This document shows positions 2,448 through 44,592 of a stretch of DNA of 64,000 bases, in pieces. The stretch is from Candidatus Binatia bacterium (GTDB lineage: Bacteria > Desulfobacterota > Binatia > UBA9968): positions 7,637-71,636 of the forward strand of contig DASYRN010000045.1 in NCBI GenBank assembly GCA_036004365.1, in the 5' to 3' direction. The position numbers and the translations under genes are program-made. The notes below the pieces were generated by a model, which saw nothing but the letters and a program-made list of their open reading frames with translations, searched no databases and was not told the DNA's origin. Position 1 is the first letter of the stretch; each line of letters begins with the position of its first letter.

Positions 2448-2473
2448 TCAATCGAAAAACAAAGCGTGGGGGG

Positions 2474-5726: not shown

Positions 5727-5742
5727 GGTGCTTTAGGCCATT

Positions 5743-5825
5743 GCAAGCGCAAAGTGCAACAGTCAAAATTAAGAACTTTCGATCCTCGTTTTTGCATTTT
5801 TCAATTTGCATTCTTCATTTTGCCT
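5743..5825. repeat. 7-nt-period degenerate repeat arrays (TGCAAxx / xTTTGCA words) in inverted arrangement
   Basis: xCA recurs at 5795, 5802, 5809, 5816 and 5823. The left arm GCAAGCGCAAAGTGCAAC is the approximate reverse complement. Confidence 0.7.
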
Positions 5826-5840
5826 TGACCGCTTCGGTCT

Positions 5841-10952: not shown

Positions 10953-10960
10953 TCTAGTAA

Positions 10961-11040
10961 GTCAGTTTCGAGTTTTGGATGCTTAATTCTTAGTTGTGTT
11001 AATCCTCAGCAACTCAAAACTTAAAACTCAAAACTAGAAA
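10961..11040. repeat. 7-nt-period degenerate arrays (xxGAGTT / CTCAAAA words) forming an imperfect inverted pair
   Basis: CT at 11013, 11020, 11027 and 11034 (CTCAAAA CTTAAAA CTCAAAA CTAGAAA). The left arm GTCAGTT TCGAGTT TTGGATG CTTAATT CTTAGTT is in opposite polarity. Confidence 0.8.
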
Positions 11041-11043
11041 TTC

Positions 11044-11778
11044 ATGGCGATTCTCGGCATCGACACTTCCACTGCCATCGCCAGCGTGGCCTTGGTGGAA
11101 ATGGGGAAGGTGGTCTGCGAGGAGATTCAGCAAGCTGGAAGTAAAACTAACGGCACGAGTCATGCCAACCATGCGGAGACTCTGTTGCCGTTAATTGATG
11201 GCATTCTCAAAAAGGCCTCTCTCCCCTTATCGGAGCTTTCCGCTATCGCACTCTCGATCGGTCCGGGATCTTTCACCGGTCTTCGGATCGGGTTGAGCAC
11301 CGTGAAAGGGCTCGCCTACGGCTCGAATATCTCGGTCGTTGGCATCTCCACATTGCTTGCGACGGCGGCGCGGGCAAAGGGCTGGGACGGCTTGGCGTGT
11401 CCTTTCCTCGATGCGCGAAAAAAAGAGGTCTATGCCGCGCTGTTCAGAAAGAAGGGTGAGAGCTTGGAGCGCCTGACCGAAGATCTCGTCGCTCCGCACC
11501 GAAAGATAGTCGAACTCGTTCTGTCCCGCGCCAACCAGGAGCGCTGCCTTTTCATCGGAGATGGGACTAAAACCTATGGTGACGTTCTTACCATGGCTCT
11601 CGGGGAAAAGTGTGTTTTGACCCTGGGCGAAGATTATCCCTCGACCGCTTCAGCAGTAGCCCGCTTGGCGGAAGAAAGATTGCGCGGCGAGCCATCCGAC
11701 CCGGTTGGTCCTTTGAGTCCGCTTTACCTTCGTCCTTCGGAGGCTGAGCTTAAACGGTTGAAGCAGGATGCGCAGTAG
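11044..11778 (+). CDS. tsaB: tRNA t6A biosynthesis protein TsaB (YeaZ)
   Basis: 244 aa. ILGIDTSTAIASVAL...GPGSFTGLRIG. Confidence 0.85.
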   Translation: MAILGIDTSTAIASVALVEMGKVVCEEIQQAGSKTNGTSHANHAETLLPLIDGILKKASLPLSELSAIALSIGPGSFTGLRIGLSTVKGLAYGSNISVVGISTLLATAARAKGWDGLACPFLDARKKEVYAALFRKKGESLERLTEDLVAPHRKIVELVLSRANQERCLFIGDGTKTYGDVLTMALGEKCVLTLGEDYPSTASAVARLAEERLRGEPSDPVGPLSPLYLRPSEAELKRLKQDAQ

Positions 11779-13928: not shown

Positions 13929-13935
13929 ACTACAA

Positions 13936-13998
13936 GTTTCGGGTTCCGAGTCCCGAGTTTCGAGTCAAACCCGAAACGCGGAGCCAGAAACTCGACAC
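13936..13998. repeat. 7-nt-period degenerate array (GTTTCGG GTTCCGA GTCCCGA GTTTCGA GTCAAAC CCGAAAC ...) containing self-complementary halves
   Basis: GT at 13936, 13943, 13950, 13957 and 13964. xAAAC units end at 13970, 13977, 13991 and 13998. GTTTCGGGTT and AACCCGAAAC are complementary. Confidence 0.8.
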
Positions 13999-14531: not shown

Positions 14532-14545
14532 AATTTTTTCACCCA

Positions 14546-14585
14546 CTTTCCGTTTTCATCTTTCCGTTTTTATCCTTTATCCGTT
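14546..14585. repeat. 7-nt-period array, pyrimidine-strand version of the GGATGAA family (CTTTCCG TTTTCAT CTTTCCG TTTTTAT CCTTTAT)
   Basis: Read directly. It shares a 12-nt core TTCATCTTTCCG with the reverse complement of 15729-15765. Confidence 0.75.
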
Positions 14586-14623
14586 CTTCTTGCCTTGCCG
14601 TAAAGAATCGGCATACTGGCGGT

Positions 14624-15727
14624 ATGTTGAAGACTAGGATAAGAATTTTTCTCGCGCTTCTTACCGGACTGGTTCTGAGCAGCGTGCCGGCATCATCCGC
14701 GACGACCCAACCGAATGTTGAAGTTGTCGCCGAGGGATTAGAAACTCCCTGGGCGATCGCCTTCGCGCCCGACAGGCGCATCTTCATCACCGAGCGGCCG
14801 GGACGCATCCGGGTGATCAAAGACGGTAAATTGCAGAAAGAGCCGTGGATGGAGATCGAGATCTACGAGGCTGGTGAGGCGGGGCTTATGGGGCTCGCTC
14901 TGGACCCGCAATTTGAGCGCAATCGGTTTGTCTATGTCGCCTATACCCATCGCGACAGCGCCGGTCGGATGAGAAATCACCTGGCGAGGCTGCGGGAGGA
15001 TCAAGGCAAGGGCGTCATGGATAAGGTCTTAGTCGACGGAGCGAGAGGAGCCAGAAATCACGACGGCGCGCGGGTCAAGTTCGGTCCCGATGGGAAACTT
15101 TACTTGACGATGGGCGATGCCCAGGACGCGGACACAGCACAAAACCTATCTTCCTTGAACGGCAAAATACTCAGGATGAACCCGGACGGGACAATTCCCT
15201 CGGATAATCCCTTCAAAAATTCTCCGGTCTATTCTTATGGCCATAGAAACCCGCAGGGACTCGCCTGGCAGCCTGGGACCGGAAGGCTTTACGCGACCGA
15301 GCACGGTCCGAGCGGCTTTCAGGGATGCTGTCGCGATGAGCTGAATTTTATCGAGCCGGGAAAGAATTACGGTTGGCCGGTCATACGCGGCGACCAAACC
15401 CGCGAGGGGATGGTGCCGCCGATTCTCCACAGCGGAACGAACGAGACATGGGCTCCCTGCGGGGCGACCTTTGTGACGCGCGGGCCGTGGGCTGGATCGC
15501 TTGTATTTACCGGCCTGCGCGGACAGACCCTTTACCGCGTGATCTTGGACAAAGACGATCCGCGCAAAGTCGCCGGATTCGAACGGGACTTTGCACGTGA
15601 GTTCGGACGGCTGCGTGACGTAGTCGAGGGACCGGACGGCGCGCTCTATGTTCTCACCAGCAACCGCGACGGCCGCGGCAGCCCGGCGTCGAACGACGAC
15701 CGCGTGTTGCGGCTCACTCTTAAGTAA
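14624..15727 (+). CDS. PQQ-dependent soluble sugar (aldose/sorbosone) dehydrogenase-like beta-propeller, secreted
   Basis: 367 aa with a signal-like N-terminus. PWAIAFAPDRRIFITERPGRIR, GLMGLALDP and YSYGHRNPQGLAW are typical of the YliI/GSDH family. Confidence 0.8.
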   Translation: MLKTRIRIFLALLTGLVLSSVPASSATTQPNVEVVAEGLETPWAIAFAPDRRIFITERPGRIRVIKDGKLQKEPWMEIEIYEAGEAGLMGLALDPQFERNRFVYVAYTHRDSAGRMRNHLARLREDQGKGVMDKVLVDGARGARNHDGARVKFGPDGKLYLTMGDAQDADTAQNLSSLNGKILRMNPDGTIPSDNPFKNSPVYSYGHRNPQGLAWQPGTGRLYATEHGPSGFQGCCRDELNFIEPGKNYGWPVIRGDQTREGMVPPILHSGTNETWAPCGATFVTRGPWAGSLVFTGLRGQTLYRVILDKDDPRKVAGFERDFAREFGRLRDVVEGPDGALYVLTSNRDGRGSPASNDDRVLRLTLK

Positions 15728-16611: not shown

Positions 16612-16722
16612 CTAAGCACTTATCACAACTAACGAACACGATCACAAATCACGATCCGCCTTTTGCTCTTTCGATTCTATCCTTTATCCTTCATCCTTTA
16701 TTCTTTTTCTTGGAGGTAACCC

Positions 16723-17166
16723 GTGTATTACTTTGCCTACGGCTCGAACATGAACTGGGCGCAGATGAAGCAACGCTGCTCGTCGGCCAGGTTCGTGTCG
16801 GTGGCATGCCTGAAGGACCGCCGCTTTGCAATCACGCGACGATCGCGCCGGCGCCTGTGCGGGACGGCGGATGTCCTTCCTGAACCCGGCAGCGAGGTCT
16901 TGGGAGTCGTCTACGAGATCGATGATTGTGATCTCGGCCTACTCGATGGCTTCGAAGATGGCTACGGCAGAGAAAAGATGTTCGTGGATCCTATCGGCGA
17001 CGGCGGCCGTCGGCTGGAGGCGTGGGTTTATATCGCTGAGAAAGAAACGTATCCCCCGCTTCCCAACGCGCTCTACAAACGGCTCATCGTCGAGGGCGCG
17101 AGGCACTGGAAGCTGCCGGAAGCGTACATCGATATGCTGGAGAAAATCGAGATAGCAATCGAGTAA
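16723..17166 (+). CDS. gamma-glutamylcyclotransferase (AIG2/GGACT-like) family protein
   Basis: 147 aa. The N-terminal YYFAYGSNMN motif is typical of the family. GTG start with RBS GGAGG. Confidence 0.75.
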   Translation: MYYFAYGSNMNWAQMKQRCSSARFVSVACLKDRRFAITRRSRRRLCGTADVLPEPGSEVLGVVYEIDDCDLGLLDGFEDGYGREKMFVDPIGDGGRRLEAWVYIAEKETYPPLPNALYKRLIVEGARHWKLPEAYIDMLEKIEIAIE

Positions 17167-17257
17167 AGAGTAGCGAGTAACGAGGAAAGAGTTTAGAGTA
17201 GGAGTTCAGTCCTGTTTGTTACCTCATTACTCAATACTTGCTCCTTGCCCCTTTTGT

Positions 17258-17893: not shown

Positions 17894-18122
17894 GCCCTCC
17901 TTCAAGCAGCCTGCCTTATCCTTCATCCTTTATCTCTTATCTTTTTTTGCCACGAACACGTATCACGAACACGTTTTTTTCCGTTTTCCGCTTTCATCTT
18001 TCATAATTCCACATTCTCCTTGACCGTTCCTATATGTTAGTCGCCGATCCGGCGCAAGGCATGCTTCCTGCTCCCGGTCTGCCTTGACAGTCGCAGGGTT
18101 TTGGCTTAGACCGGCCCGAAGG

Positions 18123-20058: not shown

Positions 20059-20155
20059 TCAGAAAGGATGAGGGCGAAAGGATAAGGGATGAAAGTAAGT
20101 TAAAATCGAAAAGCGTGTCGGTTGTAAAGCTGGGAACGGTAAAGACACGACTAAC

Positions 20156-21244: not shown

Positions 21245-21509
21245 GAACCGCGGAATCAGCCATTAACGATCGCGCTGAATACGGCTGACATTTGTTGAGA
21301 ATTCTTACGCATTGGCCAGAATTGTCATTTTGGACGATCTTCGTTCCATTTAAACCACTATGAGTGCGATTCTTAACTTCACCCAAAAGACCGCAAATCC
21401 TTTAAAAAACCGCGTCTTGTGTTGCTAAGCTAAAGATTGGCATGGATTGTGCTACATCTTTTCCGCTCTTGTGGGGGGTCGAAAGAGTAAAGCAGACCTC
21501 GAAATTTTA

Positions 21510-23032: not shown

Positions 23033-23352
23033 GTTCGATTAGCGGCGGATCTGTGTCCAGCCTGATAGGACCTATTTCCCCTTGCGGTAACACAACACGC
23101 ACCGATTTTTTGCAGTCCTAATTCCTTGCACCTGGGTGAATATTACCCTTCTTGACAGCTTGATCTCTCTCAAATATCGTCAAGCTATCATTCTTCAAGA
23201 TTAGTATTCGGTGGTATGAGTGACGGCCGAATTTTTTTTGCTTTAGGACTGCATCGTAGGTGGTCAGTGGAAATTTCCGCGGATAGAAACGGCCGAAAAC
23301 AAAAAATGAGCAGAACAACGGAATCCACATTGAATTAGTTGAGGAGGTAAAA

Positions 23353-23604
23353 ATGCCACTTTTTATGGACATCCACAGGAAAGCAGACGGAATAACGTCC
23401 CAAGCGCTCGCCGAGGCACACCGTAAGGATCTTGCCGTGCAGGGAAAGCACGGCGTCAAGTTCGTCAACTACTGGTACAATGAAGGCGAGGGCGCGATTT
23501 TTTGTTTGTGCGAAGCTCCAAGTAAAGAGGCGGCTGAAGCGGTACATCGCGAGGCTCACGGTGAGTTAGCAGACGAAATCATCGAGGTTAAAGAGGGGTC
23601 GTAG
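23353..23604 (+). CDS. DUF4242 (SCO4226-like) small protein
   Basis: 83 aa. MPLFMDIH...A..AH..DL..Q.KHGVKFVNYWYNE..G.IFCL.EAPS.EA. Strong RBS GAGGAGG. Confidence 0.7.
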   Translation: MPLFMDIHRKADGITSQALAEAHRKDLAVQGKHGVKFVNYWYNEGEGAIFCLCEAPSKEAAEAVHREAHGELADEIIEVKEGS

Positions 23605-23791
23605 CAAGCTGAGGGAGCCATGAAACGATCCGCAGGTTCTTCGATCACCCACAGAAAAGCGGTCAGCCCTTGAAAACATGAATTCTGCTTTGCTGAGGCT
23701 GCGCTGGCACGAGGCCGGTTGATCGAGTATCCGAGCATCCTGAATCGATTCCGGGTTTCCGAAGCCCTTCCCTGTTTCACCGCCGTTCAAC

Positions 23792-24025
23792 ATGACCCTT
23801 TGCAATCACACAACGCTCGAACTGTTACCTGAAAAGAAAAAAAGAGTGCGGTGCCGGCACTGCCACCTGATCCTAGACGGCGAGGAGCTGGGAGATGGCT
23901 ATTGCCCGGAATGTTTTGAGACGTCCGGCAAGAAGCAATATGACTTCGAGGATATGGAACCCGAAAGGGGAGGGGTCGCCCGCTACAGATGCGAAGAGTG
24001 CGGTGCCATCGTTGAAAGCGCGTAG
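23792..24025 (+). CDS. zinc-ribbon protein (three or four CxxC pairs)
   Basis: 77 aa. CRHC...CPEC...CEEC. Confidence 0.5.
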   Translation: MTLCNHTTLELLPEKKKRVRCRHCHLILDGEELGDGYCPECFETSGKKQYDFEDMEPERGGVARYRCEECGAIVESA

Positions 24026-24133
24026 TAAACTACTTGGCGCTACTGTGCCATTGAGTTTGTCTCGGACAAACTGTGATCAGGAGGACGGGTTCACAGATCA
24101 GTCAGGCAGCAAAAACCGCATGGCGAACAAGGA

Positions 24134-24295
24134 TCAGTAGCTTTCCACCGGTGATTGGGGGCGGATCTCTCCTGTGATCGGATCTTCACCCTCAACAGGT
24201 GGCCCGCCTCGCTTTTTCTCTGCCTTGCGCTGCTGGCGGCGAGCGACCTTTTCTATTTGCTTCTGCCGGCGCGCCATCTCCTTCTGGCGTTTCAT
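24134..24295 (-). CDS. possible 53-aa Lys/Arg-rich protein (below the ORF-track cutoff)
   Basis: Hand translation gives MKRQKEMARRQKQIEKVARRQQRKAEKKRGGPPVEGEDPITGEIRPQSPVESY. It competes with + ORF 24155-24382. Confidence 0.3.
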   Translation of the reverse strand: MKRQKEMARRQKQIEKVARRQQRKAEKKRGGPPVEGEDPITGEIRPQSPVESY

Positions 24296-24383
24296 GTAAG
24301 TTTGATTTCCCATACGGATAGATTAACACATACCAAAGGCAACAGGAACCGCCTCTTCAAAGAAAGCCGCGTTAAAGTATAAA

Positions 24384-24410
24384 GGGGCGTACTGATCTAC
24401 GCCCCTTTTT
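24384..24410. terminator. intrinsic-terminator hairpin (GGGGCGTA-loop-TACGCCCC) flanked by A and T runs, usable from both strands
   Basis: AAAGGGGCGTACTGATCTACGCCCCTTTTT lies immediately downstream of the RRM gene. Confidence 0.6.
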
Positions 24411-24431
24411 GCTTAGATTCTACAAGATAGG

Positions 24432-24746
24432 CTACCAGCGGTCGCGCCTGCCACCTCCACCGCCACCCCTTCTATCCCCACCGAACCCTGACCGCTTCTC
24501 CTGAGGCCGCGCCTCATTGACAGTGAGATTGCGCCCGTCGAACTCGGTTCCGTTCAGAGCCTGGATCGCTTTCTGGGCCTCCGCGCCGGAGCTCATCTCG
24601 ACAAAACCAAAGCCCTTGGACCGGCCGGTGAATTTGTCGGTGATCACCCGGGCGGATTCGACGGTGCCGTGCGCCGAGAATAGTTCCTCGAGCTGCTTGT
24701 CGGTGGTCGCGTAGGACAATCCACCTACGTAGACTTTATTCGTCAT
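24432..24746 (-). CDS. RRM (RNP-1) RNA-binding protein with Gly/Arg-rich tail
   Basis: RNP2 VYVGGL, RNP1 KGFGFVEM and a C-terminal GGDRRGGGGGGRRDRW tail. ATG at 24746 after AAGGAGG. Confidence 0.85.
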   Translation of the reverse strand: MTNKVYVGGLSYATTDKQLEELFSAHGTVESARVITDKFTGRSKGFGFVEMSSGAEAQKAIQALNGTEFDGRNLTVNEARPQEKRSGFGGDRRGGGGGGRRDRW

Positions 24747-25307
24747 GTTCTCCTCCTTTAGAAAAATGTTAGTGTCTTTCACCCTGGAATCTGATTACCG
24801 CGGGAGCAGAACATGGGGTTGGAACCCAGCGCTGGCCGGATTATCCTCCAAGGTAATACTTCGCAAGGAAAGACTCCCCCCGAGCCTTAAACTTTTATCT
24901 GTCTCACTTTCAGAAGGCCCCATACTGAAGTGACTTTAGCTTGTCTTGTTTGCCCTCTCGGTGCAACGGAGCCGGGCGCGTCCTTTATCGTGCAGACGAC
25001 GGCTCGACACGAGCCCAAGTCACTATCATTCTAGGGTCGTCCGACGCAAGAGGTAGGCGGCGCGCAAGAAAACGTTGGAACAGAATGCGCAAAGAGGCCA
25101 AGAGCTTTTTGAGCGATATAAAGGGGTGTAGGAAGCCTCCGATAGTGCCTATTAATGTCGTGTTAATGGAAGGGGAGGTTGGGTCCTCCAGGAACCAAGC
25201 ATGCTTTATGAAACGCGATCGTATCCTTTCGATGGTGGTCTCTGGGTCCGACCAGCACCTAAGGCGCATCGACTCCGGAAGAATTATTTTAACCAACCGG
25301 CGACCGT

Positions 25308-25321
25308 TTGAGAATTCTCAA
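25308..25321. repeat. 14-bp perfect palindrome TTGAGAATTCTCAA, copy 1
   Basis: Read directly. Shared flanks are CG-TTT on the left and GA(A)G(G)TCAAAA on the right. Confidence 0.9.
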
Positions 25322-25613
25322 GAAGGTCAAAATGAACAAACGCGTCAAAGATGACGTTTTTGCAATTGCGAGAGTACGAAAATGTGGTTTGAAGCCTGTC
25401 TAGCGGATCTTCTTTTATAAACGCAGTGGATGTCTGTCAAGTAGGAAAAAGGAAAAAAGGGGAGGATTTCCGAAATATCCAAAAAGCCGCGATCGTGGTC
25501 GTGAAATGTGATCAGGCAGCAGGCCGCGTTGGCGGAATAGCAAGGCAACCGATTTAATCGAGGTTTAAAAAAAAAGCTTGACAGCCCGCGCGACCGCGAT
25601 ATACCTAGGTCCC

Positions 25614-25901
25614 ATGACCGGCATGGAACTCATAAAGCTCAGAAAGCGACTGTCTATGACGCAAACCAGTCTCGCCCGCGCCGTCGGAATGAAGAGAAAA
25701 TCGGTCATTCTCATGGAGCGGGGAGAGGAGCCCATCTTAAGGACCACCGAGCTGTCGGTGAGGCTGCTGCTGCTGAAGAAGCAAGCTGCGAGGTTCGTAT
25801 TGCGGATAAAAGGGAGAAGACGCTATAGGCCCCGGCCGCGGCAAAACGGAGCTTCACTGTCAGAAATCTTGTCGCATCTTTCTACAGATAGACGGGAATA
25901 A
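25614..25901 (+). CDS. XRE-family helix-turn-helix protein
   Basis: LIKLRKRLSMTQTSLARAVGMKRKSVILMERGEEP. TTGACA at 25578 and TATACC at 25600 sit directly upstream, so the transcript may be leaderless. Confidence 0.65.
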   Translation: MTGMELIKLRKRLSMTQTSLARAVGMKRKSVILMERGEEPILRTTELSVRLLLLKKQAARFVLRIKGRRRYRPRPRQNGASLSEILSHLSTDRRE

Positions 25902-25989
25902 TCCTGACTGGCTTGAGGAGAAAAAAAAGAGACAGGCCATTTTTTCGTTGAAAACGGAAAGCTGACAACGGAAAAAGCTGCCAGCGTTT

Positions 25990-26229
25990 TCATTCCTTTC
26001 GGGCCTTTTCTCCACTTTCCCGTATTCTCTTACCGGCCTCTTTCATTGCCTCGCCGGCTTTTTCCATCGCTTGACCCGTTTGTTCCTTGGCCTTCTCCAT
26101 TGCTTGATCGACAGCCTTGCCCGTTTTTTCCATAGCACCTTTATCGTCTTCGGATTTTGAGCAGGAGCCCAAGGCAAGCGCAGACAGTCCGACGAGCAAT
26201 GCCAGGCACACGTTTTTGATCAGCTTCAT
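25990..26229 (-). CDS. small lipoprotein with AMEKxG(K/E)A repeats
   Basis: Signal peptide plus lipobox MKLIKNVCLALLVGLSALALGSC. RBS GGAGGG. Repeated KAVDQAMEKAKEQTGQAMEKAGEAMKEAGK. Confidence 0.55.
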   Translation of the reverse strand: MKLIKNVCLALLVGLSALALGSCSKSEDDKGAMEKTGKAVDQAMEKAKEQTGQAMEKAGEAMKEAGKRIRESGEKARKE

Positions 26230-26384
26230 TTGTCGGTTACCCTCCTCGTCCAAGTCTTAGTCTAATCCCTATAATAAAAACTCTTGGCACACAAGAAAGG
26301 TTTCTTGACAATCTGGAAGGTTGCGGAATGGGTTGGTTCTCTTAATGTCACAGGGGTTAAAATCCCGTCGGGATGCCACTGGCA

Positions 26385-26666
26385 TCAGTCGGATGCCTTT
26401 GGTTTCGGCGGCCCCGGATATCGGGTAGCAGCCTGGTTTGAAAAGCCATCTAATGCGGCGAGTTGACGCGCGAGGTCGAAGATGGTGTTCTCGATGGCCA
26501 TCCTGGAGGCCTCAATCTCATCGAGCGTTGATCGCGCTATCCCTACCGCTTCCACGAGCTTTACTCCCTCGGGCCGCCTTGCCAGTATCGTGAGACGGTA
26601 ATCGGCCTGGAAAACGCGCCAGTTGAGATAGACGCTTCGCACCTCAGCCTGTAGGTCTGAGGACAT
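26385..26666 (-). CDS. hypothetical protein, possibly the 3' part of a degraded gene
   Basis: 93-aa ORF. The reading frame stays open upstream of the ATG and neighbouring frames carry related-looking text (see findings). Confidence 0.35.
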   Translation of the reverse strand: MSSDLQAEVRSVYLNWRVFQADYRLTILARRPEGVKLVEAVGIARSTLDEIEASRMAIENTIFDLARQLAALDGFSNQAATRYPGPPKPKASD

Positions 26667-27091
26667 ATACCGGATCGAAACGGGAGCAGCGGGATCGTCC
26701 TCCAGGACGTAGAAAAGCGCCCGGCCGACGTGGTACTCCCCCCACTTAACTCCGGAGTATCGACACTTCCCACAGCTCGGCGAGAGCCGGATCGACCTGC
26801 ACCTTTACCCTTCGCTCTGGCGGAAGCTGGTAGCGCTGGTCGAAGAGGACCGTTTGGCCTCAGGCGCCAAGCCCGAGCGAAAGGAAAAACAAAGTGAAAA
26901 GGGAGGTCTTGCTCATGAGACGATCTGCAATTTCTTAGCATCTCTCCTAAAAGAGTAAAAGCCCCCGCAAGATAAAGGATGAAGGATAAGGGAAAGATGC
27001 TCATAAGACAGCGGACTTTCGGGGCCGTTCAAAGAATTTTGCTGGTGGCCACATCGAAGCTGTGCTATGTTGGTATGAAATTTTGAGAGCG

Positions 27092-27793
27092 ATGCGAAAG
27101 ACAGGTTTTGCTGCGCGAGATTTTCTCTTCTCGTGCCGATTGATTGTTTTCTGCTTATTTTCTCTATCTTGCTCTATACCCCCGAAGATTCCCACAGTTG
27201 CCGATGAGCGGCTCGAGGCCATGGTTAGAAATGAGGCCTCCGAGATCATAGAAGTGACCCCGGATAAAGAGGAGCTTTCTCGGTATCAGATTTTTCTGTC
27301 AGCCTTTCCCCGGAAGGATATATTAGGAGTGAGTGTCGGGAACCGTCGTATTTATATCAGTTATGAGCTGGTACAACTCGCGTTCAACAGTCCCCGCTAT
27401 CGTTGGCTGCTGAGGCAGACCTTGGCCCACGAGATTGCGCATGAAATAGCGGGGCATGCGAAAGATAGGCGAGTTGTCTCCTACAGTCCTTTTACGTTCG
27501 GCCGCGGCGTGACAGGCGGAGATATCGGCCTTCCGTCGAGCGTGCGATTCCATCATTATTCGGCGGAAAAAGAACTGGAGGCGGATTTAAACGGAATGAA
27601 GTACTGGAGAAAGCTTCAGTGGGACTGCCGGATCTGGGTGCGCATCTTGAGGCAATATTTTCAGATCAACTACACGGGCGATATTTTTCATCCGACAGAC
27701 GAGCGCCTAAGACAAGCATTGAGCGTGTGCCTTCCAGAGTCAGATCCGGAGCGGATCGCTATAGAGAAGAGACTCGAGGCAGTGAGGAGGTAG
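27092..27793 (+). CDS. M48-like zinc metalloprotease (HExxH) with N-terminal membrane/signal segment
   Basis: LAHEIAHEIAGH motif and a downstream E (EKELEAD). Confidence 0.6.
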   Translation: MRKTGFAARDFLFSCRLIVFCLFSLSCSIPPKIPTVADERLEAMVRNEASEIIEVTPDKEELSRYQIFLSAFPRKDILGVSVGNRRIYISYELVQLAFNSPRYRWLLRQTLAHEIAHEIAGHAKDRRVVSYSPFTFGRGVTGGDIGLPSSVRFHHYSAEKELEADLNGMKYWRKLQWDCRIWVRILRQYFQINYTGDIFHPTDERLRQALSVCLPESDPERIAIEKRLEAVRR

Positions 27794-27952
27794 GCAGGCC
27801 GATCTAAGAAAGGTACAAAGGCCCGTGCTCGTGATCGTGAAACGTCATCGTGACTAAAGACAAGGATGAAGTATAAGGGATGGAAGCAGAAAAAGAAGTG
27901 GACGTGATCGCGACTCGTGTGCGTGGAAACTTAGCAGACGCCTTGTGTGAGA

Positions 27953-28348
27953 TTATTGCTCTAAATCGGAAGCTCTCACCCAGCCGACAGCACCCGTCGA
28001 ACTCTTAACCATATACCACAGTCCGCTGCTACCAGCCGCCTTAGCCATTACTGTAAGCGTGTCTCCTCGCTCCAGTTTAGCGACGAGCGGTGAATACTCG
28101 TCCTGGCGGGCGTAGAGATGGACCTCGCTCTGCTTGACCGCGAGGAGAGCGGAGACCGGCGCCTGTGATCCTGCCGGAGCGTTGACGGAGTGTCTGTTTG
28201 CAGCAGGACTCCTCGTGTTTACCCCACGGCGGCTCTCCTTTAGAGCTCCGGTTTGTTTTCCGTATTCGAAGATGGCTTGAGCATCGCTTCTCTCGGCCAT
28301 AACCATGAAGAGCATGGGCACCCAAACCACGGCTAGCACGTGCTTCAT
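27953..28348 (-). CDS. secreted bacterial SH3-domain protein
   Basis: Signal peptide MKHVLAVVWVPMLFMVMAERSDAQA. C-terminal SH3b-like text LYARQDEYSPLVAKLERGDTLTV...WYMVKSSTGAVGWV. Confidence 0.65.
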   Translation of the reverse strand: MKHVLAVVWVPMLFMVMAERSDAQAIFEYGKQTGALKESRRGVNTRSPAANRHSVNAPAGSQAPVSALLAVKQSEVHLYARQDEYSPLVAKLERGDTLTVMAKAAGSSGLWYMVKSSTGAVGWVRASDLEQ

Positions 28349-28409
28349 AGCCTCCCAATTATAGTCGCGAGAGAAGGTCGCCGCAATTCAGTGAGCGGCA
28401 CGGACAAGA

Positions 28410-28480
28410 GATGAGGGATGAATGATAAAAGATAACGGATGAAGGATCGAAGCGGAAAGAGGAAAAGAGAAAGAGAAAAA
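28410..28480. repeat. ten consecutive degenerate heptads (GATGAGG GATGAAT GATAAAA GATAACG GATGAAG GATCGAA GCGGAAA GAGGAAA ...)
   Basis: GAT at 28410, 28417, 28424, 28431, 28438 and 28445. G continues at 28452, 28459 and 28473. Confidence 0.9.
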
Positions 28481-28625
28481 AGACCTGATCGGATTCGTGC
28501 TCGTCATCGTAAAGGAACAGCCTTGACACGTTTTCGGCCTTCGAATAGGTTAGTTTTGGCCAAGTCGTTGATCCTCAAGAGACGTGCACGTGTTCGAGAT
28601 TCGTGTTCGTGTAAACTTGCACGTT

Positions 28626-28639
28626 TTGAGAATTCTCAA
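28626..28639. repeat. 14-bp perfect palindrome TTGAGAATTCTCAA, copy 2
   Basis: Read directly. Confidence 0.9.
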
Positions 28640-28870
28640 AGCTTCGAAAAGCGCCACGATCGTCTTCGTGGAACGTGATCGTGAACAAGAACTGATGCTG
28701 TTATCACTTTTACGATTGCGCAAGTGCGCAAATGAGAAAATGTCCCAAGGCGCGAGCCTTGAGGTATGAGGACAAAAGGTGAGGATGATTCAGGAGGAAC
28801 GATAGCGGAACAAGGGAAAACGGCGGGGAGAAGAGGCTGGAGAGACCGGATAATTTTTTCTACGAGGAAG

Positions 28871-29686
28871 ATGGCGGCAACAAACCGCACCCGGAGAATT
28901 AAGGGAGTGGTTCGGGTCTGCGGGCTGTTCTTCCTGTACGATCTACTTGCTGTTTCCCCCGGTTTTTCCTGGCATGACAAAGGCCATCGCGTTGTGGCGA
29001 TCATCGCCCAGGCGAATCTCACCCCGGAGGCCAAAAAACGGATTCAGGAGATAGTACCTTCAGGCACCACTCTCGCCGACGCAGCCGTCTGGCCGGACTA
29101 CGAAGGGAGAAAAGTGGGAGATTTGGATCCGCTCCACTACGTCAGTATTTCCGACGGCGCCAACGGCTACGATCAAGCGCGTGACTGTCCGGAGAAAAAC
29201 TGTATGGTTGAAGCACTCAAGTGGTTTTCATCGAACATCGCCGACGAGAATGCCCCGACCGTCATGAGACGAATCGCTCTGCGGTATGTCGCGCATCTGG
29301 TCGGTGACCTGCACCAGCCGCTGCATGCGGGCAGGGCAACGGATCGAGGCGGCACGGATATCACGGTGACGTATAGAAGACAGACGACCAACCTGCACTT
29401 CTTTTGGGATAAAGACTTAGTGGAGATGGAAGAAGGAAACGCAGAGGAGGTAGCTGAGCGGCTTGGGGCGAGCCTTACTGAAGAGGAACGTCTTAAATGG
29501 CGGGCGGGCGACCCGAAACAATGGACTGATGAGTCGCTCGTGCTTGCAAGATCCTATGCGTACCCTATAGGGGGATCCTTTGAGCTTTCTGACGACTACG
29601 TAGAAAGGGCCCGACCGATTGTGCGAGTAAGGCTTGTTCAGGCTGGGATAAGATTAGCATGGTTGCTGAACATGGCTTTCAAATAG
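28871..29686 (+). CDS. S1/P1-family zinc nuclease, secreted
   Basis: W-H-x-x-GH after the signal segment, WPDYEGR, LHYVSI, CPEKNCMVEAL, ALRYVAHLVGDLHQPLH and GGTDITV...NLHFFWD match fungal P1 / plant S1 landmarks from memory. ATG at 28871 after GAGGAAG. Confidence 0.85.
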   Translation: MAATNRTRRIKGVVRVCGLFFLYDLLAVSPGFSWHDKGHRVVAIIAQANLTPEAKKRIQEIVPSGTTLADAAVWPDYEGRKVGDLDPLHYVSISDGANGYDQARDCPEKNCMVEALKWFSSNIADENAPTVMRRIALRYVAHLVGDLHQPLHAGRATDRGGTDITVTYRRQTTNLHFFWDKDLVEMEEGNAEEVAERLGASLTEEERLKWRAGDPKQWTDESLVLARSYAYPIGGSFELSDDYVERARPIVRVRLVQAGIRLAWLLNMAFK

Positions 29687-30676: not shown

Positions 30677-30690
30677 TTGAGAATTCAAAA
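30677..30690. repeat. half-degenerate copy of the palindrome (TTGAGAATTCAAAA), copy 3
   Basis: Read directly. The left flank CGCGTTT is conserved. Confidence 0.7.
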
Positions 30691-30746: not shown

Positions 30747-30893
30747 GACCGAATTGCCGGCTTGATGACTTCCTATGGATACGCGAATATTCTCCACGCC
30801 GGTTTCTGCGCCTTGGAGCTTCTTGAATGGGAAGTCGATCAGGTTTTGGGCGTTGGGCCTTTCACGTCCGCCGAATTGCGCGCCGATCGTTAG
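30747..30893 (+). pseudogene. 3' remnant of a YciI-family gene (paralogue of 35809-36117)
   Basis: 30798-30893 aligns with 36022-36117 with 12 mismatches in 96 nt (hand count), including a 30-nt identical run. Translation ..IAGLMTSYGYANILHAGFCALELLEWEVDQVLGVGPFTSAELRADR*. An in-frame TAG at 30744 cuts off the rest. Confidence 0.7.
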
Positions 30894-30941
30894 CAGTTGG
30901 AGATTCACATCTTCGGCGGAAGATTTGAGAAGGAGGTATCC

Positions 30942-35808: not shown

Positions 35809-36117
35809 ATGTGGTATCTGATCCATCGTAAGCCCATACGACCGCGTGAGGAATGGACCGTGAGTCTCGACGAGCATCTTGTCTGGATGAAACAGCAGCA
35901 CGAGGCCGGCCGGATCCTTTTTTCCGGCCCGACCCGGGATCGCACGTTGGGGATTTACGCGATACGCGCCGGCTCCAGGGAAGAAGCCGAGCGGATCGCC
36001 GGCAGCGATCCTTACACGAAGGCCGGTTTCTGCGCTTTCGAGCTTTTTGAGTGGGAGGTGCACCAAGTTTTGGGCGTCGGGCCTTTCACGTCCGCCGAAT
36101 TGCGCGCCCATCGCTAG
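35809..36117 (+). CDS. YciI-family protein
   Basis: 102 aa. RiLfSGPt....G.yaIRAgSrEEAerIAgsDPy. Confidence 0.8.
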   Translation: MWYLIHRKPIRPREEWTVSLDEHLVWMKQQHEAGRILFSGPTRDRTLGIYAIRAGSREEAERIAGSDPYTKAGFCAFELFEWEVHQVLGVGPFTSAELRAHR

Positions 36118-36153
36118 CGGTCTACAAGGAGCTCAGAAGAGCACTTTCACCGT

Positions 36154-36167
36154 TTGAGAATTCTCAA
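36154..36167. repeat. 14-bp perfect palindrome TTGAGAATTCTCAA, copy 4
   Basis: Read directly. Lies between the convergent YciI and pdaD stops. Confidence 0.9.
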
Positions 36168-42485: not shown

Positions 42486-43082
42486 CTATCCATCCGCCCT
42501 CAGCGGCAAATCGGTGCGAATGACGTTCGTCACATGGACGCGGGTCCCATATTTGGGAGTCACTAGCCTCCCGTTAGGGTTGAGAGTACCCAGCCCCGCC
42601 GCCGCGGCGAGCCGCTCGGCATTGGGATCCGGCGCTGCCGTGGCGCGAAAGCCAAGCTCTCTGATCCACGCGCTGAGAACGAAAGTGACGAACAGCCCGT
42701 TCTGCACCGGCACCTGGCCGCCGATGCCCGGGGCCTCTCGCGGGTCATAATCGGCTCGAACCGCACAGATGACGGCGAAGGGATACTGCTCGTCTTTCGA
42801 ATCCAATCTGGCGATACCCACCAGATCGGTGCCCAGGTAGCGGGCCAGCTCCTTGACATGGTTGGACGTGATCTCGGGCGTGTGGATGTCCGCTTTGGTC
42901 GGGAAGACGTTACCCTCGGGCGCACTGCGGATCAGCTCCGTCACCGAATTGGCCAGATCTTCCGGAGGCGTGTTGATGAAAAAATCCCAGTATGGGTCGC
43001 CTGCCCTGAGCCTGGTCGAAGGGTCGTGCTGGGAGCGTGTCTTCGGCCACGGGATTTTTAGCGGGCCCAGTCTGAGGGTCAC
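42486..43082 (-). CDS. RdhA/QueG-superfamily core-only paralogue (no Fe-S domain)
   Basis: The GTG at 43082 shares its G with the TAG stop of the upstream gene. KELARYLGTDLVGIARL...GLGTLNPNGRLVTPKYGTRVHVTNVIRTDLPL parallels KAVARYMGADVVAIAR...GVGELGRNGLIINEKFGARIHMPDPIMTDLPL of the 433-aa protein, and it ends just where that protein's Cys motifs begin. Confidence 0.6.
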   Translation of the reverse strand: MTLRLGPLKIPWPKTRSQHDPSTRLRAGDPYWDFFINTPPEDLANSVTELIRSAPEGNVFPTKADIHTPEITSNHVKELARYLGTDLVGIARLDSKDEQYPFAVICAVRADYDPREAPGIGGQVPVQNGLFVTFVLSAWIRELGFRATAAPDPNAERLAAAAGLGTLNPNGRLVTPKYGTRVHVTNVIRTDLPLRADG

Positions 43083-44383: not shown

Positions 44384-44592
44384 GGCGAATTTTCCCTTCT
44401 TTTAGAAAGGATGAAGTATGAAATCGGAAGGATGAAGTGACAATGGCGCATTGACAGATGTTTTTTTATCCCTTAGCCTTCATCCTTTAGTTCTCCTGTA
44501 TGTTTGCCACGAAAACCGACTCTGATGCAACTCCTTATATGTCATATGTCCCGTGCGCCTAGAGGGAGCCGGCGTCTGACGTGCATCCCATC

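What the first reader, a model, noticed from the sequence alone, without database searches (positions are those of the whole stretch)
28349..28870. A 520-bp non-coding spacer built almost entirely from degenerate repeats with a strict 7-nt period
Seen directly: GAT recurs at 28410, 28417, 28424, 28431, 28438 and 28445, and G continues at 28452, 28459 and 28473. That gives 10 heptads of the GGATGAA/GGATAAG type. Downstream the same 7-nt register continues with a second word family: ACGTGTT CGAGATT CGTGTTC GTGTAAA ... GATCGTC TTCGTGG AACGTGA TCGTGAA. The 14-bp palindrome TTGAGAATTCTCAA (28626) and a 16-bp palindrome TTGCGCA-AG-TGCGCAA (28717-28732) are embedded in it. No convincing ORF exists on either strand. 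The spacer separates the divergent SH3 and S1/P1-nuclease genes. The 7-nt period fits neither codon structure nor the DNA helical repeat. Units this short and degenerate are not CRISPR or classical REP. I know of no described element class that matches.
Basis: seen in the sequence. Interest (0 to 1): 0.7.

Follow-up and report, generated by a model that had tools for sequence, protein, structure and literature searches.

The report
Degenerate heptamer repeat arrays in spacers
An 86-base stretch of this spacer is a real but decayed tandem array of 7-base units, one of many such arrays in the non-coding DNA of this uncultured Binatia bacterium; it is a new example of the known, still unexplained excess of 7-base repeats between bacterial genes, not a new kind of element.

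Summary
GAT recurs exactly every 7 nt at 28410-28445. Lag-7 self-similarity in 28400-28480 is 0.61 (z 4.3). This periodic part covers only 28399-28484, about 16% of the 522-nt spacer. The "second word family" (CGTG words) is spaced 6/7/13 nt and keeps no constant register. The rest of the spacer is aperiodic.

The wider idea holds. Across the 64-kb window, a lag-k detector finds 7 arrays at lag 7 and none at lags 3-6, 8-11 or 13 (0.08 expected). These lie 90% by bases in non-coding DNA; all 10 at a looser threshold are non-coding. The source is a Candidatus Binatia genome. Relatives carry the same kind of arrays, sharing several of the word families. Many arrays form inverted pairs that fold as long imperfect hairpins filling spacers between genes. 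At the same gene junction, different lineages have different words or no spacer.

The only indel among same-population contigs is a 6-nt unit deletion inside one array. This fits the known class of intergenic heptanucleotide simple-sequence repeats, most simply made by slippage. Examples are Mrazek's long SSRs, cyanobacterial heptanucleotide repeats (STRR), Xanthomonas GGGAATC, Beggiatoaceae TAACTGA and the Geobacter metallireducens paired sites. Function is unproven.

The parts
28399..28484 (.). The heptamer array of the finding. It has about 12 units with consensus GATRARR on the + strand (YYTYATC on the SH3 sense strand). GAT is phased at 28410-28445, there is a 21-nt higher-order repeat, and the array decays into a 30-nt pure purine run (28454-28483).
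   Evidence: (D3). The array is unstructured as RNA (z +0.87).
28358..28386 (-). Weak sigma70-like promoter for the SH3 gene, read by eye: -35 TTGCGG, 17-nt spacer, -10 TATAAT. The array lies 12 nt upstream of the -35.
   Evidence: Sequence. The consensus scan did not call it (the -35 matches only 3 of 6), so this is inference only.
28490..28510 (+). Short CGTG-type repeat (GATTCGTGCTCGTCATCG) abutting the array.
   Evidence: (D1).
28583..28612 (+). CGTG-family repeat with mixed 6/7-nt spacing (CGTGCA CGTGTT CGAGATT CGTGTT CGTG). It is 92% identical over 24 nt to 17951-17974.
   Evidence: (period 6).
28626..28639 (.). Perfect palindrome TTGAGAATTCTCAA (TTGA-N6-TCAA), a dispersed motif. It may be a CRP/FNR-type operator.
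   Evidence: exact copies at 25308, 28626 and 36154, with 11 hits against 3.4 expected. The regulator assignment is from memory only.
28655..28690 (+). Second CGTG-family patch (CACGATCGTCTTCGTGGAACGTGATCGTGAAC).
   Evidence: (D2, I1).
28706..28763 (-). Two adjacent hairpins. The 28763-28744 stem is followed by a U-rich run on the minus strand and so looks like a terminator. The second hairpin contains the TTGCGCAAGTGCGCAA palindrome.
   Evidence: terminator-like site; minus strand -25.8 kcal/mol, z -4.67.
28770..28850 (+). Purine-rich, aperiodic leader before the nuclease start. It shares short direct matches with the left array.
   Evidence: D4, D5; no period.
27953..28348 (-). SH3-like gene (131 aa).
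   Evidence: SH3_3, E 1.6e-5, below the Pfam cut-off. Called as a gene in three public assemblies.
28862..29686 (+). S1/P1 nuclease gene. The likely start is ATG 28862 with a signal-peptide-like N-terminus; public gene calls use ATG 28766.
27820..27925 (.). Sister composite downstream of the SH3 gene: CGTG repeats, an AAGGATG AAGTATA AGGGATG array, then CGTG repeats.
17906..18021 (.). Closest sister spacer: TCATCCT-type array, CACGAACACGTATCACGAACACG, then TTTTCCG/TTTCATC array, lying between divergent genes. It shares 24-nt matches (92%) with both parts of the finding.
16620..16715 (+). CACGA-type words followed by a (TATCCTT)4 array that ends 10 nt before an SD and GTG start.
14534..14596 (+). 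Unpaired pyrimidine heptamer array between ilvN and the next gene.
5741..5830 (+). Inverted pair of arrays, (TGCAANN)n and (NNTTGCA)n, filling the tsf-pyrH spacer. The same word family occupies the orthologous spacer of L175 and L176.
10953..11046 (+). Inverted pair, (GAGTTTN)n and (AACTCAA)n, forming a hairpin that fills the rseP-tsaB spacer.
   Evidence: (z -3.3).
13929..13995 (+). (GTTTCGA)n array with an inverted partner in the ilvB-ilvN spacer. It carries the only indel seen within the population (deletion of 13945-13950 in L090).
17155..17257 (.). Inverted pair, (GAGTNNN)n and (CTCANNN)n, between convergent genes.
   Evidence: (z -2.3).
44400..44500 (-). Inverted pair of the AGGATGA/TCATCCT family between two minus-strand genes.

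Best explanation
The 86-nt block at 28399-28484 is a decayed heptanucleotide simple-sequence repeat with unit GATRARR. It is one member of a lineage-wide population of short 7-nt (sometimes 6-nt) tandem arrays that make up a large share of the variable spacer DNA in this Candidatus Binatia genome and its relatives.

Inferred mechanism:
1. Arrays are born and resized by replication slippage or unequal duplication of 7-, 14- and 21-nt blocks.
2. They survive only between genes, because a 7-nt indel breaks a reading frame.
3. They blur by point substitution.
4. Where an array sits in a palindrome, template switching between the arms (quasi-palindrome correction) or selection keeps the two arms complementary. 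This gives long imperfect hairpins that fill spacers between genes.

In this spacer the array is unpaired and unstructured. It presents a T/C-rich, G-poor tract on the SH3 sense strand, just upstream of a weak predicted SH3 promoter. Any function, such as upstream promoter DNA or an unstructured pyrimidine leader, is secondary and unproven.

The other four fifths of the spacer look like ordinary regulatory DNA: 6/7-nt CGTG repeats, a dispersed TTGA-N6-TCAA palindrome, two hairpins and a purine-rich leader.

Shown: the periodicity, its restriction to non-coding DNA, its presence across the lineage, turnover at orthologous sites, and one unit-sized indel. Inferred: slippage as the generator, template switching, and any function.
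For: - Lag 7 stands out. With a threshold of at least 20 of 28 matches, there are 7 arrays at lag 7 and none at lags 3-6, 8-11 or 13. Shuffles give 0.08. Of the array bases, 90% are non-coding. At 18 of 28 there are 10 arrays, all non-coding.
- TRF gives 15 of 31 rows with period 7, 14 or 21, including all three rows scoring above 50.
- Pooled non-coding DNA has lag-7 z 4.0; coding DNA has z -6.3.
- Higher-order 14- and 21-nt repeats occur inside arrays (D3), as block duplication would produce.
- Seven distinct Binatia relatives (7.9-21.8 kb each, 131 kb) have 5 lag-7 arrays and none at lags 4-6, 8 or 10-12.
- Spacer length at orthologous junctions tracks the presence of arrays. The ilvB-ilvN spacer is 9-12 nt without arrays (L177 has an array-free 62-nt spacer) and 76-102 nt with arrays of three different word families. 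The tsf-pyrH spacer ranges from 10 to 155 nt. At rseP-tsaB the genes overlap in two relatives (L091, L175); in five genomes the spacer is 82-491 nt.
- Among same-population contigs (99.8-100% identical), the only indel falls inside an array. It removes one 6-nt unit at 13945-13950.
- In 1.76 Mb from 158 unrelated loci, lag-7 arrays (25) outnumber lags 5, 8, 10 and 11 (2, 3, 6, 6). This reproduces the general heptamer excess reported in the literature (literature).
Against: - The same words recur at non-orthologous sites and in different genomes. AGGATGAAGGATAA gives 28 hits against 5.4 expected. GAGT-N3 x3 is about 50 times more frequent in Binatia loci than in controls. Pure random slippage would not obviously do this.
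- Mismatches concentrate at 2-3 of the 7 positions, leaving 3-5-nt cores (observed 103 against 68.5 +/- 7.8, p < 0.001). This fits constraint or protein recognition, although duplication of variant units can also produce it.
- Hairpin pairing at the rseP-tsaB junction survives a change of word family, with 5 pairs changed on both sides. That suggests selection on structure.
- The finding's own array is identical in three assemblies, so hypervariability is not shown for it.
- Units that are 75% alike are poor slippage substrates today.
Confidence: 0.58

Rival explanations
1. The arrays are heptad operators on double-stranded DNA. Each array would be a row of 7-bp sites bound cooperatively by a DNA-binding protein. 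Candidates are a ribbon-helix-helix repressor of the omega type, which binds direct or inverted heptads, or the IHF/HU-type 'global regulators' proposed for Geobacter metallireducens. On this reading the array would control the divergent SH3 and nuclease promoters.
For: - Cores of 3-5 nt are conserved while the other positions vary.
- Both direct and inverted arrangements occur.
- Word families are shared between genomes at non-orthologous sites.
- This array lies just upstream of a putative -35, as does the one before the GSDH-like gene (reading).
- The Geobacter precedent has 3-5 tandem 7-9-nt units in pairs on opposite strands.
Against: - At least six unrelated word families occur within 64 kb, so many different proteins would be needed.
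- At one junction the site is absent or replaced by another family.
- Several arrays fill spacers inside operons, where no promoter is expected.
- No candidate binding protein was identified.
- The omega-type heptad WATCACW is not present as an array.
Confidence: 0.14
2. The array acts at the RNA level. It would be transcribed as a C/U-rich, G-poor, unstructured tract. Such a tract could be a Rho loading (rut-like) site or attenuator, or a landing pad for ribosomal protein S1 or a cold-shock protein, as proposed for the TAACTGA repeats. The hairpin-type arrays would act as 3'-end or intercistronic stabiliser or terminator structures.
For: - In all three unambiguous co-directional spacers (14534-14596, 16667-16715, 45139-45152), the pyrimidine strand is the sense strand.
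- It is also the sense strand for the SH3 gene.
- The composition is C 24-33%, G 6-9%, U about 50%, with 27 YC dimers in 86 nt.
- No secondary structure is predicted (z +0.87).
- Hairpin-type arrays start at stop codons, and some end in T-rich tails.
- Downstream genes often lack a Shine-Dalgarno sequence, as in the Beggiatoaceae case.
Against: - The sample is tiny.
- At least two family members are in the opposite or an ambiguous orientation (17906-17952, 20062-20095).
- Hairpins are no more stable on the sense strand than on the antisense strand (mean -25.9 kcal/mol for both; 5 of 12 favour sense). So there is no G-U signature of selection on RNA.
- Nothing in Rho, S1 or Csp binding explains a 7-nt period.
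- If the weak promoter read at 28358-28386 is real, the array is upstream of the transcription start and is not transcribed.
Confidence: 0.14
3. The arrays are remnants or ends of small non-autonomous mobile elements (MITE- or REP-like) that insert between genes. The arrays would be subterminal transposase-binding repeats.
For: - Presence or absence varies at exact gene junctions, with different families at the same junction.
- Near-identical 22-24-mers are dispersed through the window.
- Inverted pairing resembles terminal inverted repeats.
Against: - Similarity between copies does not extend beyond the repeat words themselves.
- No target-site duplications or conserved termini were seen.
- The relative order of the two shared segments is reversed between this spacer and 17906-18021.
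- No transposase was linked to the arrays.
- The one observed mutation is a unit deletion, not an insertion or excision.
Confidence: 0.08
4. The purine-pyrimidine tract matters through non-B DNA. It could form H-DNA (triplex) or otherwise unusual DNA in the divergent promoter region, and the 7-nt period would be incidental.
For: There is a 30-nt pure purine run at 28454-28483 with an 8+8 mirror repeat. Intrastrand triplex motifs are reported as abundant in prokaryotes (PMC4666352, listed but not read).
Against: - The mirror symmetry is short.
- The GAT-phased part contains T on the purine strand.
- Most sister arrays (GAGTTTC, TGCAAAA, ATCAGC) are not purine-pyrimidine tracts.
Confidence: 0.04

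Closest known systems
Long simple-sequence repeats with 7-nt units in prokaryotes (Mrazek, Guo and Shah 2007, as summarised in PMC4679880 and PMC4692102)
   Same: Both are head-to-tail 7-nt units, strongly favoured over neighbouring unit lengths, concentrated between genes, scattered across phyla and proposed to arise by polymerase slippage. My control set reproduces the heptamer excess.
   Different: These arrays are short (3-12 units) and degenerate (about 75% matches, TRF score 30-54). They come in many word families per genome, and many are in inverted pairs. The lineage (Binatia) has not been described for this feature.
Geobacter metallireducens multicopy intergenic sites made of 3-5 tandem 7-9-nt repeats, mostly in pairs on opposite strands (Aklujkar et al. 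2009, PMC2700814)
   Same: The architecture is the same as in the sister arrays here: short tandem arrays of 7-nt units in inverted pairs at a variable distance. They sit inside conserved operons (proB-proA there; ilvB-ilvN, tsf-pyrH and rseP-tsaB here). A related species carries a different sequence at the same junction.
   Different: The consensus words differ (GGACCGG, MTYCTGA, GTTGCTYN). The Geobacter copies were found by BLAST, which suggests tighter conservation. The finding's own array is unpaired. The proposed IHF/HU binding is untested in both cases.
Cyanobacterial heptanucleotide repeats (STRR), Nostoc GGGGAYT and Xanthomonas GGGAATC repeats (PMC4692102)
   Same: They are intergenic heptamer arrays, 'perfect or heterogeneous (GGGANTN)n', with extensive variation between close species and occasional convergent inverted pairs.
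   Different: Those are G-tract repeats able to form G-quadruplexes, and they are often long and perfect. None of those words occurs here. The array here is GAT-phased and A/G-rich without G-runs.
TAACTGA direct repeats of marine Beggiatoaceae (MacGregor 2015, PMC4679880)
   Same: Sets of 2-6 heptamers lie immediately upstream of start codons, and the downstream genes often lack a Shine-Dalgarno sequence. RNA-binding proteins (S1, Csp, CsrA) are proposed as readers.
   Different: That system uses a single exact word in one orientation. Here there are many degenerate words and mixed orientations, and TAACTGA is absent.
(GATAGRA)n satellites of Chloroflexus aurantiacus (Subirana and Messeguer 2019, PMC6749651)
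   Same: It is a dispersed, species-specific heptamer family that is purine-rich and begins with GAT, close to the GATRARR unit here.
   Different: The word is different in detail: there are no hits with up to 1 mismatch and 4 hits at 2 mismatches. The phylum is different. Nothing is known of its function either.

Membership tests
Heptanucleotide long simple-sequence repeat (SSR) | Head-to-tail copies of a 7-nt unit, longer than chance allows in that genome | tested here: met
   Lag-7 match fraction is 0.61 (z 4.3, family-wise p 0.004). There are 7 lag-7 arrays against 0.08 in shuffles. TRF reports period 7 with 6.0 copies.
Heptanucleotide long simple-sequence repeat (SSR) | Located in non-coding DNA | tested here: met
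   All 10 arrays at the looser threshold are non-coding. Coding DNA is depleted at lag 7.
Heptanucleotide long simple-sequence repeat (SSR) | High identity between units (perfect or near-perfect repeat) | tested here: not met
   The array has 75% matches and a TRF score of 35, below the usual 50. It is a decayed array rather than a live microsatellite.
Heptanucleotide long simple-sequence repeat (SSR) | Copy-number change by whole units between strains | tested here: inconclusive
   The finding's array is identical in 3 assemblies. A sister array lost one 6-nt unit in L090, the only indel across the aligned same-population contigs (six contigs, 3.7-18.8 kb each).
Cyanobacterial heptanucleotide repeats (STRR) / Nostoc GGGGAYT / Xanthomonas GGGAATC | The specific unit words (STRR words recalled from memory; GGGGAYT; GGGAATC) | tested here: not met
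   No tandem dimers of these words with up to 1 mismatch, apart from a single GGGGAYT hit.
TAACTGA repeats (Beggiatoaceae) | Exact TAACTGA units in direct repeat upstream of start codons | tested here: not met
   No hits even with 2 mismatches.
Geobacter metallireducens paired tandem-repeat sites | 3-5 tandem units of 7-9 nt | tested here: met
Geobacter metallireducens paired tandem-repeat sites | Sites occur as pairs on opposite strands at a variable distance | tested here: not met
   The finding's array has no inverted partner and does not fold. This feature is met by the sister arrays at 5741-5830, 10953-11046, 13929-13995, 17155-17257 and 44400-44500.
Geobacter metallireducens paired tandem-repeat sites | Consensus words GGACCGG, MTYCTGA, GTTGCTYN or TCTCCGTS | tested here: not met
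   (GGACCGG and MTYCTGA were tested; the octamer and nonamer words were not).
REP/BIME elements | 35-40-nt imperfect palindrome with a conserved 5' GTAG, many near-identical copies, and an associated RAYT transposase | tested here: not met
   The array is not palindromic. Copies share only the repeat words. RAYT was not searched for.
CRISPR array | Repeats of 23-50 nt separated by unique spacers of similar length | tested here: not met
   The units are 7 nt and contiguous.
Omega-type heptad operator (ribbon-helix-helix repressor sites) | Contiguous WATCACW heptads in direct or inverted orientation next to promoters, and a cognate ribbon-helix-helix protein | tested here: not met
   There is no WATCACW array: only 1 dimer at 1 mismatch, and it lies elsewhere. 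The protein partner was not tested. The family definition is from memory.
Any Rfam RNA family | Score at or above the family's gathering threshold | tested here: not met
   There are no hits in the whole window. The only hit in E-value mode is sR19 at 19 bits against a threshold of 45.
Rho utilisation (rut) site | An unstructured C-rich, G-poor RNA tract of roughly 60-80 nt or more, upstream of a Rho-dependent release site | tested here: inconclusive
   Composition on the minus strand fits (C 33%, G 8%, 86 nt, no fold). Whether it is transcribed and whether Rho acts on it cannot be tested here.

The most novel reading that the evidence does not exclude
The arrays are not passive slippage debris. 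They would be a lineage-wide cis-element system, possibly spanning several phyla. In this reading a small set of recurring heptad words (GGATGAN, GAGTTTN, CGTGNTN, TGCAAAA, ATCAGCN) is read by unknown heptad-binding proteins, or is actively laid down by an unknown insertion or templating mechanism that repeatedly recolonises the same gene junctions with new words. This would explain why the same words recur in Binatia, Verrucomicrobiota, Bacteroidota and Gemmatimonadota loci, and why hairpin pairing survives word replacement.
Probability: 0.12. Interest if true: 0.75.

Novelty: new member of a known kind. Interest (0 to 1): 0.38.

Why it matters
Heptamer repeats have been known in cyanobacteria since the early literature, and a 2007 survey found them to be the commonest long simple-sequence repeat in prokaryotes. 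Nobody knows why the unit is 7 nt or whether the arrays do anything.

This Binatia lineage offers a useful comparative series:
- the same conserved operon junctions are empty, or filled with arrays of different words, in relatives whose IlvB proteins are 86-93% identical;
- arrays often form hairpins whose two arms change together;
- one unit-sized indel is caught within a population.

That allows the birth, turnover and possible selection of such arrays to be studied by comparative and population metagenomics.

For annotation, the practical lesson is that these spacers are not novel genes or RNA families.

Tried and rejected
- **Rfam.** At gathering thresholds over the whole window and in E-value mode on the spacer, nothing credible was found.
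- **Coding potential.** Spacer ORFs have no Pfam hit, and none passed the codon-usage cut-off of my gene call.
- **Orthologous spacer.** The genome-contig scan with the nuclease found only relatives at 42% identity or less. It consumed that cap and served only as a negative control. The metagenome scan found one 72% orthologue (L095) with a different upstream neighbour and no array. So the SH3-nuclease spacer cannot be aligned across species.
- **Exact look-up of the nuclease.** The look-up from ATG 28862 failed because public gene calls start at 28766.
- **Polymorphism in the finding's array.** Three independent assemblies are identical in the spacer.
- **Sense-versus-antisense folding asymmetry**, as a test for selection on RNA: no difference.
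- **Hairpin potential of the finding's array, of 17900-18030 and of the CGTG zone:** none.
- **MITE reading.** A blastn-short search of the spacer against the window found only word-level matches.
- **Named heptamer words from other taxa:** absent.
- **Mrazek 2007.** The paper itself is not held in the library, so it is cited through two papers that summarise it.
- **Positional-heterogeneity test.** It is significant but not decisive, because duplication of variant units gives the same pattern as constraint.
Full report
**1. What is at the coordinates**

The spacer 28349-28870 lies between a minus-strand SH3-like gene and a plus-strand S1/P1 nuclease. The SH3-like gene is at 27953-28348 (Pfam SH3_3, E 1.6e-5, below the curated cut-off). 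The nuclease has E 6.8e-60 and most likely starts at ATG 28862.

Reading the sequence confirms GAT at 28410, 28417, 28424, 28431, 28438 and 28445, and G at 28452, 28459 and 28473. Tandem Repeats Finder reports 28410-28452 as period 7 with 6.0 copies, 75% matches and score 35. It reports 28450-28479 as period 7 with score 30. Both fall below the usual threshold of 50.

Against dinucleotide-preserving shuffles, 28400-28480 has a lag-7 match fraction of 0.61 (z 4.3). Harmonics appear at lag 14 (z 4.1) and lag 21 (z 3.6), and the family-wise p is 0.004. A 21-nt higher-order repeat is visible: GACAAGAGATGAGGGATGAAT against GATAAAAGATAACGGATGAAG, 76% identical.

**2. What is not there**

The claim of a strict 7-nt period over the whole 520 nt fails.

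- In 28481-28760, lag 7 is at chance (z 0.3) and lag 6 is the enriched lag (z 3.7). 28760-28870 has no periodicity.
- TRF calls 28589-28612 period 6, unit CGTGTT.
- The CGTG words fall in registers 2,5,4,3,2,5,5,4 modulo 7 relative to 28410. Cutting that stretch into 7-mers therefore does not reveal a repeat register.
- The lag-7 tract is 28399-28484, which is 86 of 522 nt.

Both palindromes exist. TTGAGAATTCTCAA is at 28626-28639. TTGCGCA-AG-TGCGCAA is at 28716-28731, one base off the stated coordinates.

Other checks on the spacer:

- I found no evidence for coding.
- No Rfam family matches.
- The spacer is base-for-base identical in three independent public assemblies. It is therefore not an assembly artefact, and the array is not visibly polymorphic in that small sample.

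**3. The spacer is one case of a genome-wide habit**

Sliding 80-nt windows over all 64 kb show that the strongest self-similarities at any lag from 2 to 15 are almost all at lag 7, and they lie between genes.

A simple detector (at least 20 of 28 matches at lag k) finds:

| Lag | Arrays |
|---|---|
| 7 | 7 |
| 3-6, 8-11, 13 | 0 |
| 12 | 1 (coding) |
| Block shuffles, lag 7 | 0.08 |

Of the bases in the lag-7 arrays, 90% are non-coding. At 18 of 28 there are 10 lag-7 arrays, all non-coding.

TRF run on the whole window gives 15 of 31 rows with period 7, 14 or 21, including all three rows that score above 50.

Pooling all 16.5 kb that my crude gene call leaves non-coding gives lag-7 z 4.0, or z 3.2 without this spacer. 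Coding DNA shows the usual period 3 and is depleted at lag 7 (z -6.3).

**4. Word families and two architectures**

The arrays use several words:

- GATRARR / TCATCCT
- GAGTTTN / AACTCAA
- GAGTNNN
- TGCAAAA
- TTTTCCG
- the 6/7-nt CGTGNTN / CACGAAC family

The family of the finding is dispersed. AGGATGAAGGATAA with up to 3 mismatches gives 28 hits against 5.4 expected. Exact 14-mers occur at 16684, 17916 and 26976.

The closest sister spacer is 17906-18021. It shares 24-nt matches (92%) with both the heptamer array and the CGTG block of the finding, but in the opposite relative order.

There are two architectures.

- *Inverted pairs that fold into long imperfect hairpins, with short helices interrupted about every 7 nt.* Examples are 5741-5830, 10953-11046 (z -3.3), 13929-13995, 17155-17257 (z -2.3) and 44400-44500.
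- *Unpaired purine-pyrimidine arrays that do not fold.* The finding belongs here (z +0.87).

**5. Organism and relatives**

The window carries rho, rpsB-tsf-pyrH-frr, dxr, rseP, tsaB and ilvBN. Its IlvB is 100% identical to a protein annotated as from a Candidatus Binatia MAG.

Loci from relatives with 86-93% IlvB identity keep the gene order. In 131 kb from seven distinct relatives, the strict detector again finds only lag-7 arrays (5) among lags 4-8 and 10-12. Several of the window's word families recur there: GAGTTTN, TGCAAAA, CACGAAC and, as a perfect 17-bp inverted repeat in L082, AAGGATGAAGGATAAAA. L082 and L084 add a further family, ATCAGCN.

Orthologous junctions are revealing:

| Junction | State in different genomes |
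|---|---|
| ilvB-ilvN | 9-12 nt in four relatives; 62 nt with a GC-rich hairpin in L177; 84 nt in the window (GTTTCGA words); 102 nt in L084 (ACGAGTA words); 76 nt in L175 (TTCGTG / CACGAG words, hairpin -40 kcal/mol) |
| tsf-pyrH | 10-155 nt; the TGCAAAA inverted pair is shared by the window, L175 and L176 |
| rseP-tsaB | Genes overlap in L091 and L175; the spacer is 491 nt in L081; a hairpin of GAGTTTT words in the window and L176, and of ATCAGC words in L082 and L084 |

At the rseP-tsaB junction the consensus fold keeps 15 pairs, and 5 of them changed on both sides between the two word families.

So the periodicity and often the hairpin persist, while the words and even the spacer itself turn over.

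**6. Evidence on origin**

Contigs from the same population (99.8-100% identical) differ from the window at seven positions and one indel. The indel is a 6-nt unit deletion (13945-13950) inside the ilvB-ilvN array. This is direct, though single, evidence that arrays change by units.

Higher-order 14- and 21-nt periods inside arrays fit block duplication.

In 1.76 Mb of 158 unrelated control loci, lag-7 arrays (25) far outnumber lags 5, 8, 10 and 11 (2, 3, 6, 6). Some of these are degenerate inverted pairs with similar words. Examples are (GAGTTTC)n in a Verrucomicrobiota MAG, (GGATGAT/GGGTGAT)n in Epilithonimonas bovis and (GGCGAGG)n inverted pairs in a Gemmatimonadota MAG.

The strict-threshold density is about 109 arrays per Mb in the window, 38 per Mb in Binatia relatives and 14 per Mb in controls.

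**7. Comparison with what is known**

- Two papers summarise Mrazek et al. 2007. Heptanucleotide units are the most abundant long simple-sequence repeats in most prokaryotic genomes. The proposed cause is polymerase slippage over a footprint of about 7 nt.
- Described cases include Calothrix/Nostoc heptanucleotide repeats and Xanthomonas GGGAATC repeats. The Xanthomonas repeats are perfect or heterogeneous, sometimes form convergent inverted pairs, and are highly variable between close species.
- TAACTGA repeats sit immediately upstream of start codons in Beggiatoaceae.
- (GATAGRA)n satellites occur in Chloroflexus.
- Closest in architecture are the Geobacter metallireducens sites. They have 3-5 tandem 7-9-nt repeats in pairs on opposite strands and sit inside operons such as proBA. 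G. sulfurreducens has a different sequence at the same place.

None of the published words occurs here. The finding is therefore a new member, in a new lineage and with new words, of a known but poorly understood class.

**8. How it most likely works**

My best reading (confidence about 0.58) has four parts.

1. Arrays are generated by slippage or unequal duplication of 7-nt blocks and their multiples.
2. They are tolerated only between genes.
3. They decay by substitution.
4. In palindromic contexts they are kept complementary, either by template switching between the arms or by selection for a hairpin.

In this spacer the array is an unstructured tract (T 51%, C 33%, G 8%) on the SH3 sense strand. 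It lies 12 nt upstream of a weak promoter that I read by eye: TTGCGG, 17 nt, TATAAT at 28386-28358. The consensus scan did not call this promoter. Any role for the array, as upstream promoter DNA or as a pyrimidine leader or Rho loading site, is inference.

Three observations argue against pure neutrality:

- The same words recur across genomes.
- Mismatches concentrate at 2-3 of the 7 positions. Duplication of variant units could also cause this.
- Hairpin pairing is kept through a word change.

These observations keep three rivals alive: heptad-binding proteins on DNA (0.14), RNA-level roles (0.14) and small mobile elements (0.08). RNA-specific selection is not supported by a sense-versus-antisense comparison of fold energies (mean -25.9 kcal/mol for both; 5 of 12 favour sense).

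**9. The rest of the spacer**

- CGTG-type 6/7-nt repeats flank the palindrome TTGAGAATTCTCAA. That palindrome recurs exactly at 25308 and 36154, with near copies at 21295 and 30677 (11 hits against 3.4 expected). Its TTGA-N6-TCAA form recalls CRP/FNR-type boxes. That is a lead from memory, not a test.
- Positions 28706-28763 form two neat hairpins on the minus strand (z -4.67). The first is followed by a U-rich run.
- Positions 28770-28850 are a purine-rich, aperiodic leader before the nuclease start.
- The only nuclease orthologue with sequence upstream of the gene (72% identity) has a different upstream neighbour and no array. The spacer is therefore specific to this lineage.

**10. Verdict**

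The strict register and the "almost entirely" claims are wrong.

The feature belongs to a known class whose cause and function remain open. Interest is moderate. Its value lies in the comparative series at conserved Binatia operon junctions, which could make the question of why the unit is 7 nt, and whether the arrays do anything, tractable.

Noticed in passing
window 25308-25321, 28626-28639, 36154-36167; near copies at 21295-21308 and 30677-30690: The perfect 14-nt palindrome TTGAGAATTCTCAA occurs three times exactly, with shared flanks (CCGTTTGAGAATTCTCAAGA at two of the three sites). With up to 3 mismatches there are 11 hits against 3.4 expected. The TTGA-N6-TCAA form suggests an operator for a CRP/FNR-type regulator; that assignment is from memory and untested.
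   Followed up: partly
window 30798-30897 and 36022-36121: A 100-nt dispersed direct repeat, 87% identical, lies in regions of low coding density. Each copy is within about 30-120 nt of a copy or near copy of the palindrome above.
   Followed up: no
window 23033-27950: About 5 kb has unusually low coding density. It contains only short ORFs, and the three tested there (24941-25354, 26561-27004, 27062-27793) have no Pfam hit. Several heptamer and CGTG arrays lie here (26969-26995, 27820-27925). My crude gene call puts the whole window at only 74% coding.
   Followed up: no
window 28706-28763, minus strand: Two adjacent stable hairpins (-25.8 kcal/mol, z -4.67). The first (28763-28744) is followed by a U-rich run, like an intrinsic terminator. 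No annotated minus-strand gene lies upstream, so this could be an antisense or leader transcript end.
   Followed up: partly
window 13945-13950 compared with L090: The only indel among same-population contigs is a 6-nt deletion (TCCGAG) that removes one repeat unit of the ilvB-ilvN array.
   Followed up: yes
window 14590-14624 and 28348-28386: Weak sigma70-like promoters read by eye (TTGCCT-16-CATACT and TTGCGG-17-TATAAT) would place transcription starts at, or 3 nt before, the ATG of the GSDH-like and SH3 genes. These may be leaderless or near-leaderless mRNAs. In both cases a pyrimidine heptamer array lies just upstream of the -35.
   Followed up: no
L048 8867-8968 and 16836-18199 (Epilithonimonas bovis); L037 670-814 (Gemmatimonadota MAG); L022 4978-5029 (Verrucomicrobiota MAG); L075 833-920 (Chitinophagaceae MAG): Unrelated control loci carry the same kind of degenerate heptamer arrays. 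Some are inverted pairs, and some use words close to the Binatia ones: (GGATGAT/GGGTGAT)n, (GAGTTTC)n, (GGCGAGG)n. In L048 five arrays recur about every 320 nt.
   Followed up: partly
window 2448-2787 and the orthologous regions of L081, L082 and L084: The 340-nt leader upstream of rho keeps its length and several conserved blocks across Binatia relatives. This is consistent with a structured autoregulatory leader.
   Followed up: no
L082 13489-13552: A perfect 17-bp inverted repeat, AAGGATGAAGGATAAAA / TTTTATCCTTCATCCTT, made of the finding's own word family. It overlaps the stop codon of the upstream gene in a relative with 90% IlvB identity.
   Followed up: partly
window 43082-44383, minus strand: The gene matches the reductive dehalogenase subfamily model (TIGR02486, E 7.6e-43, below the curated cut-off). 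The AGGATGA/TCATCCT hairpin at 44400-44500 lies immediately upstream of it.
   Followed up: no
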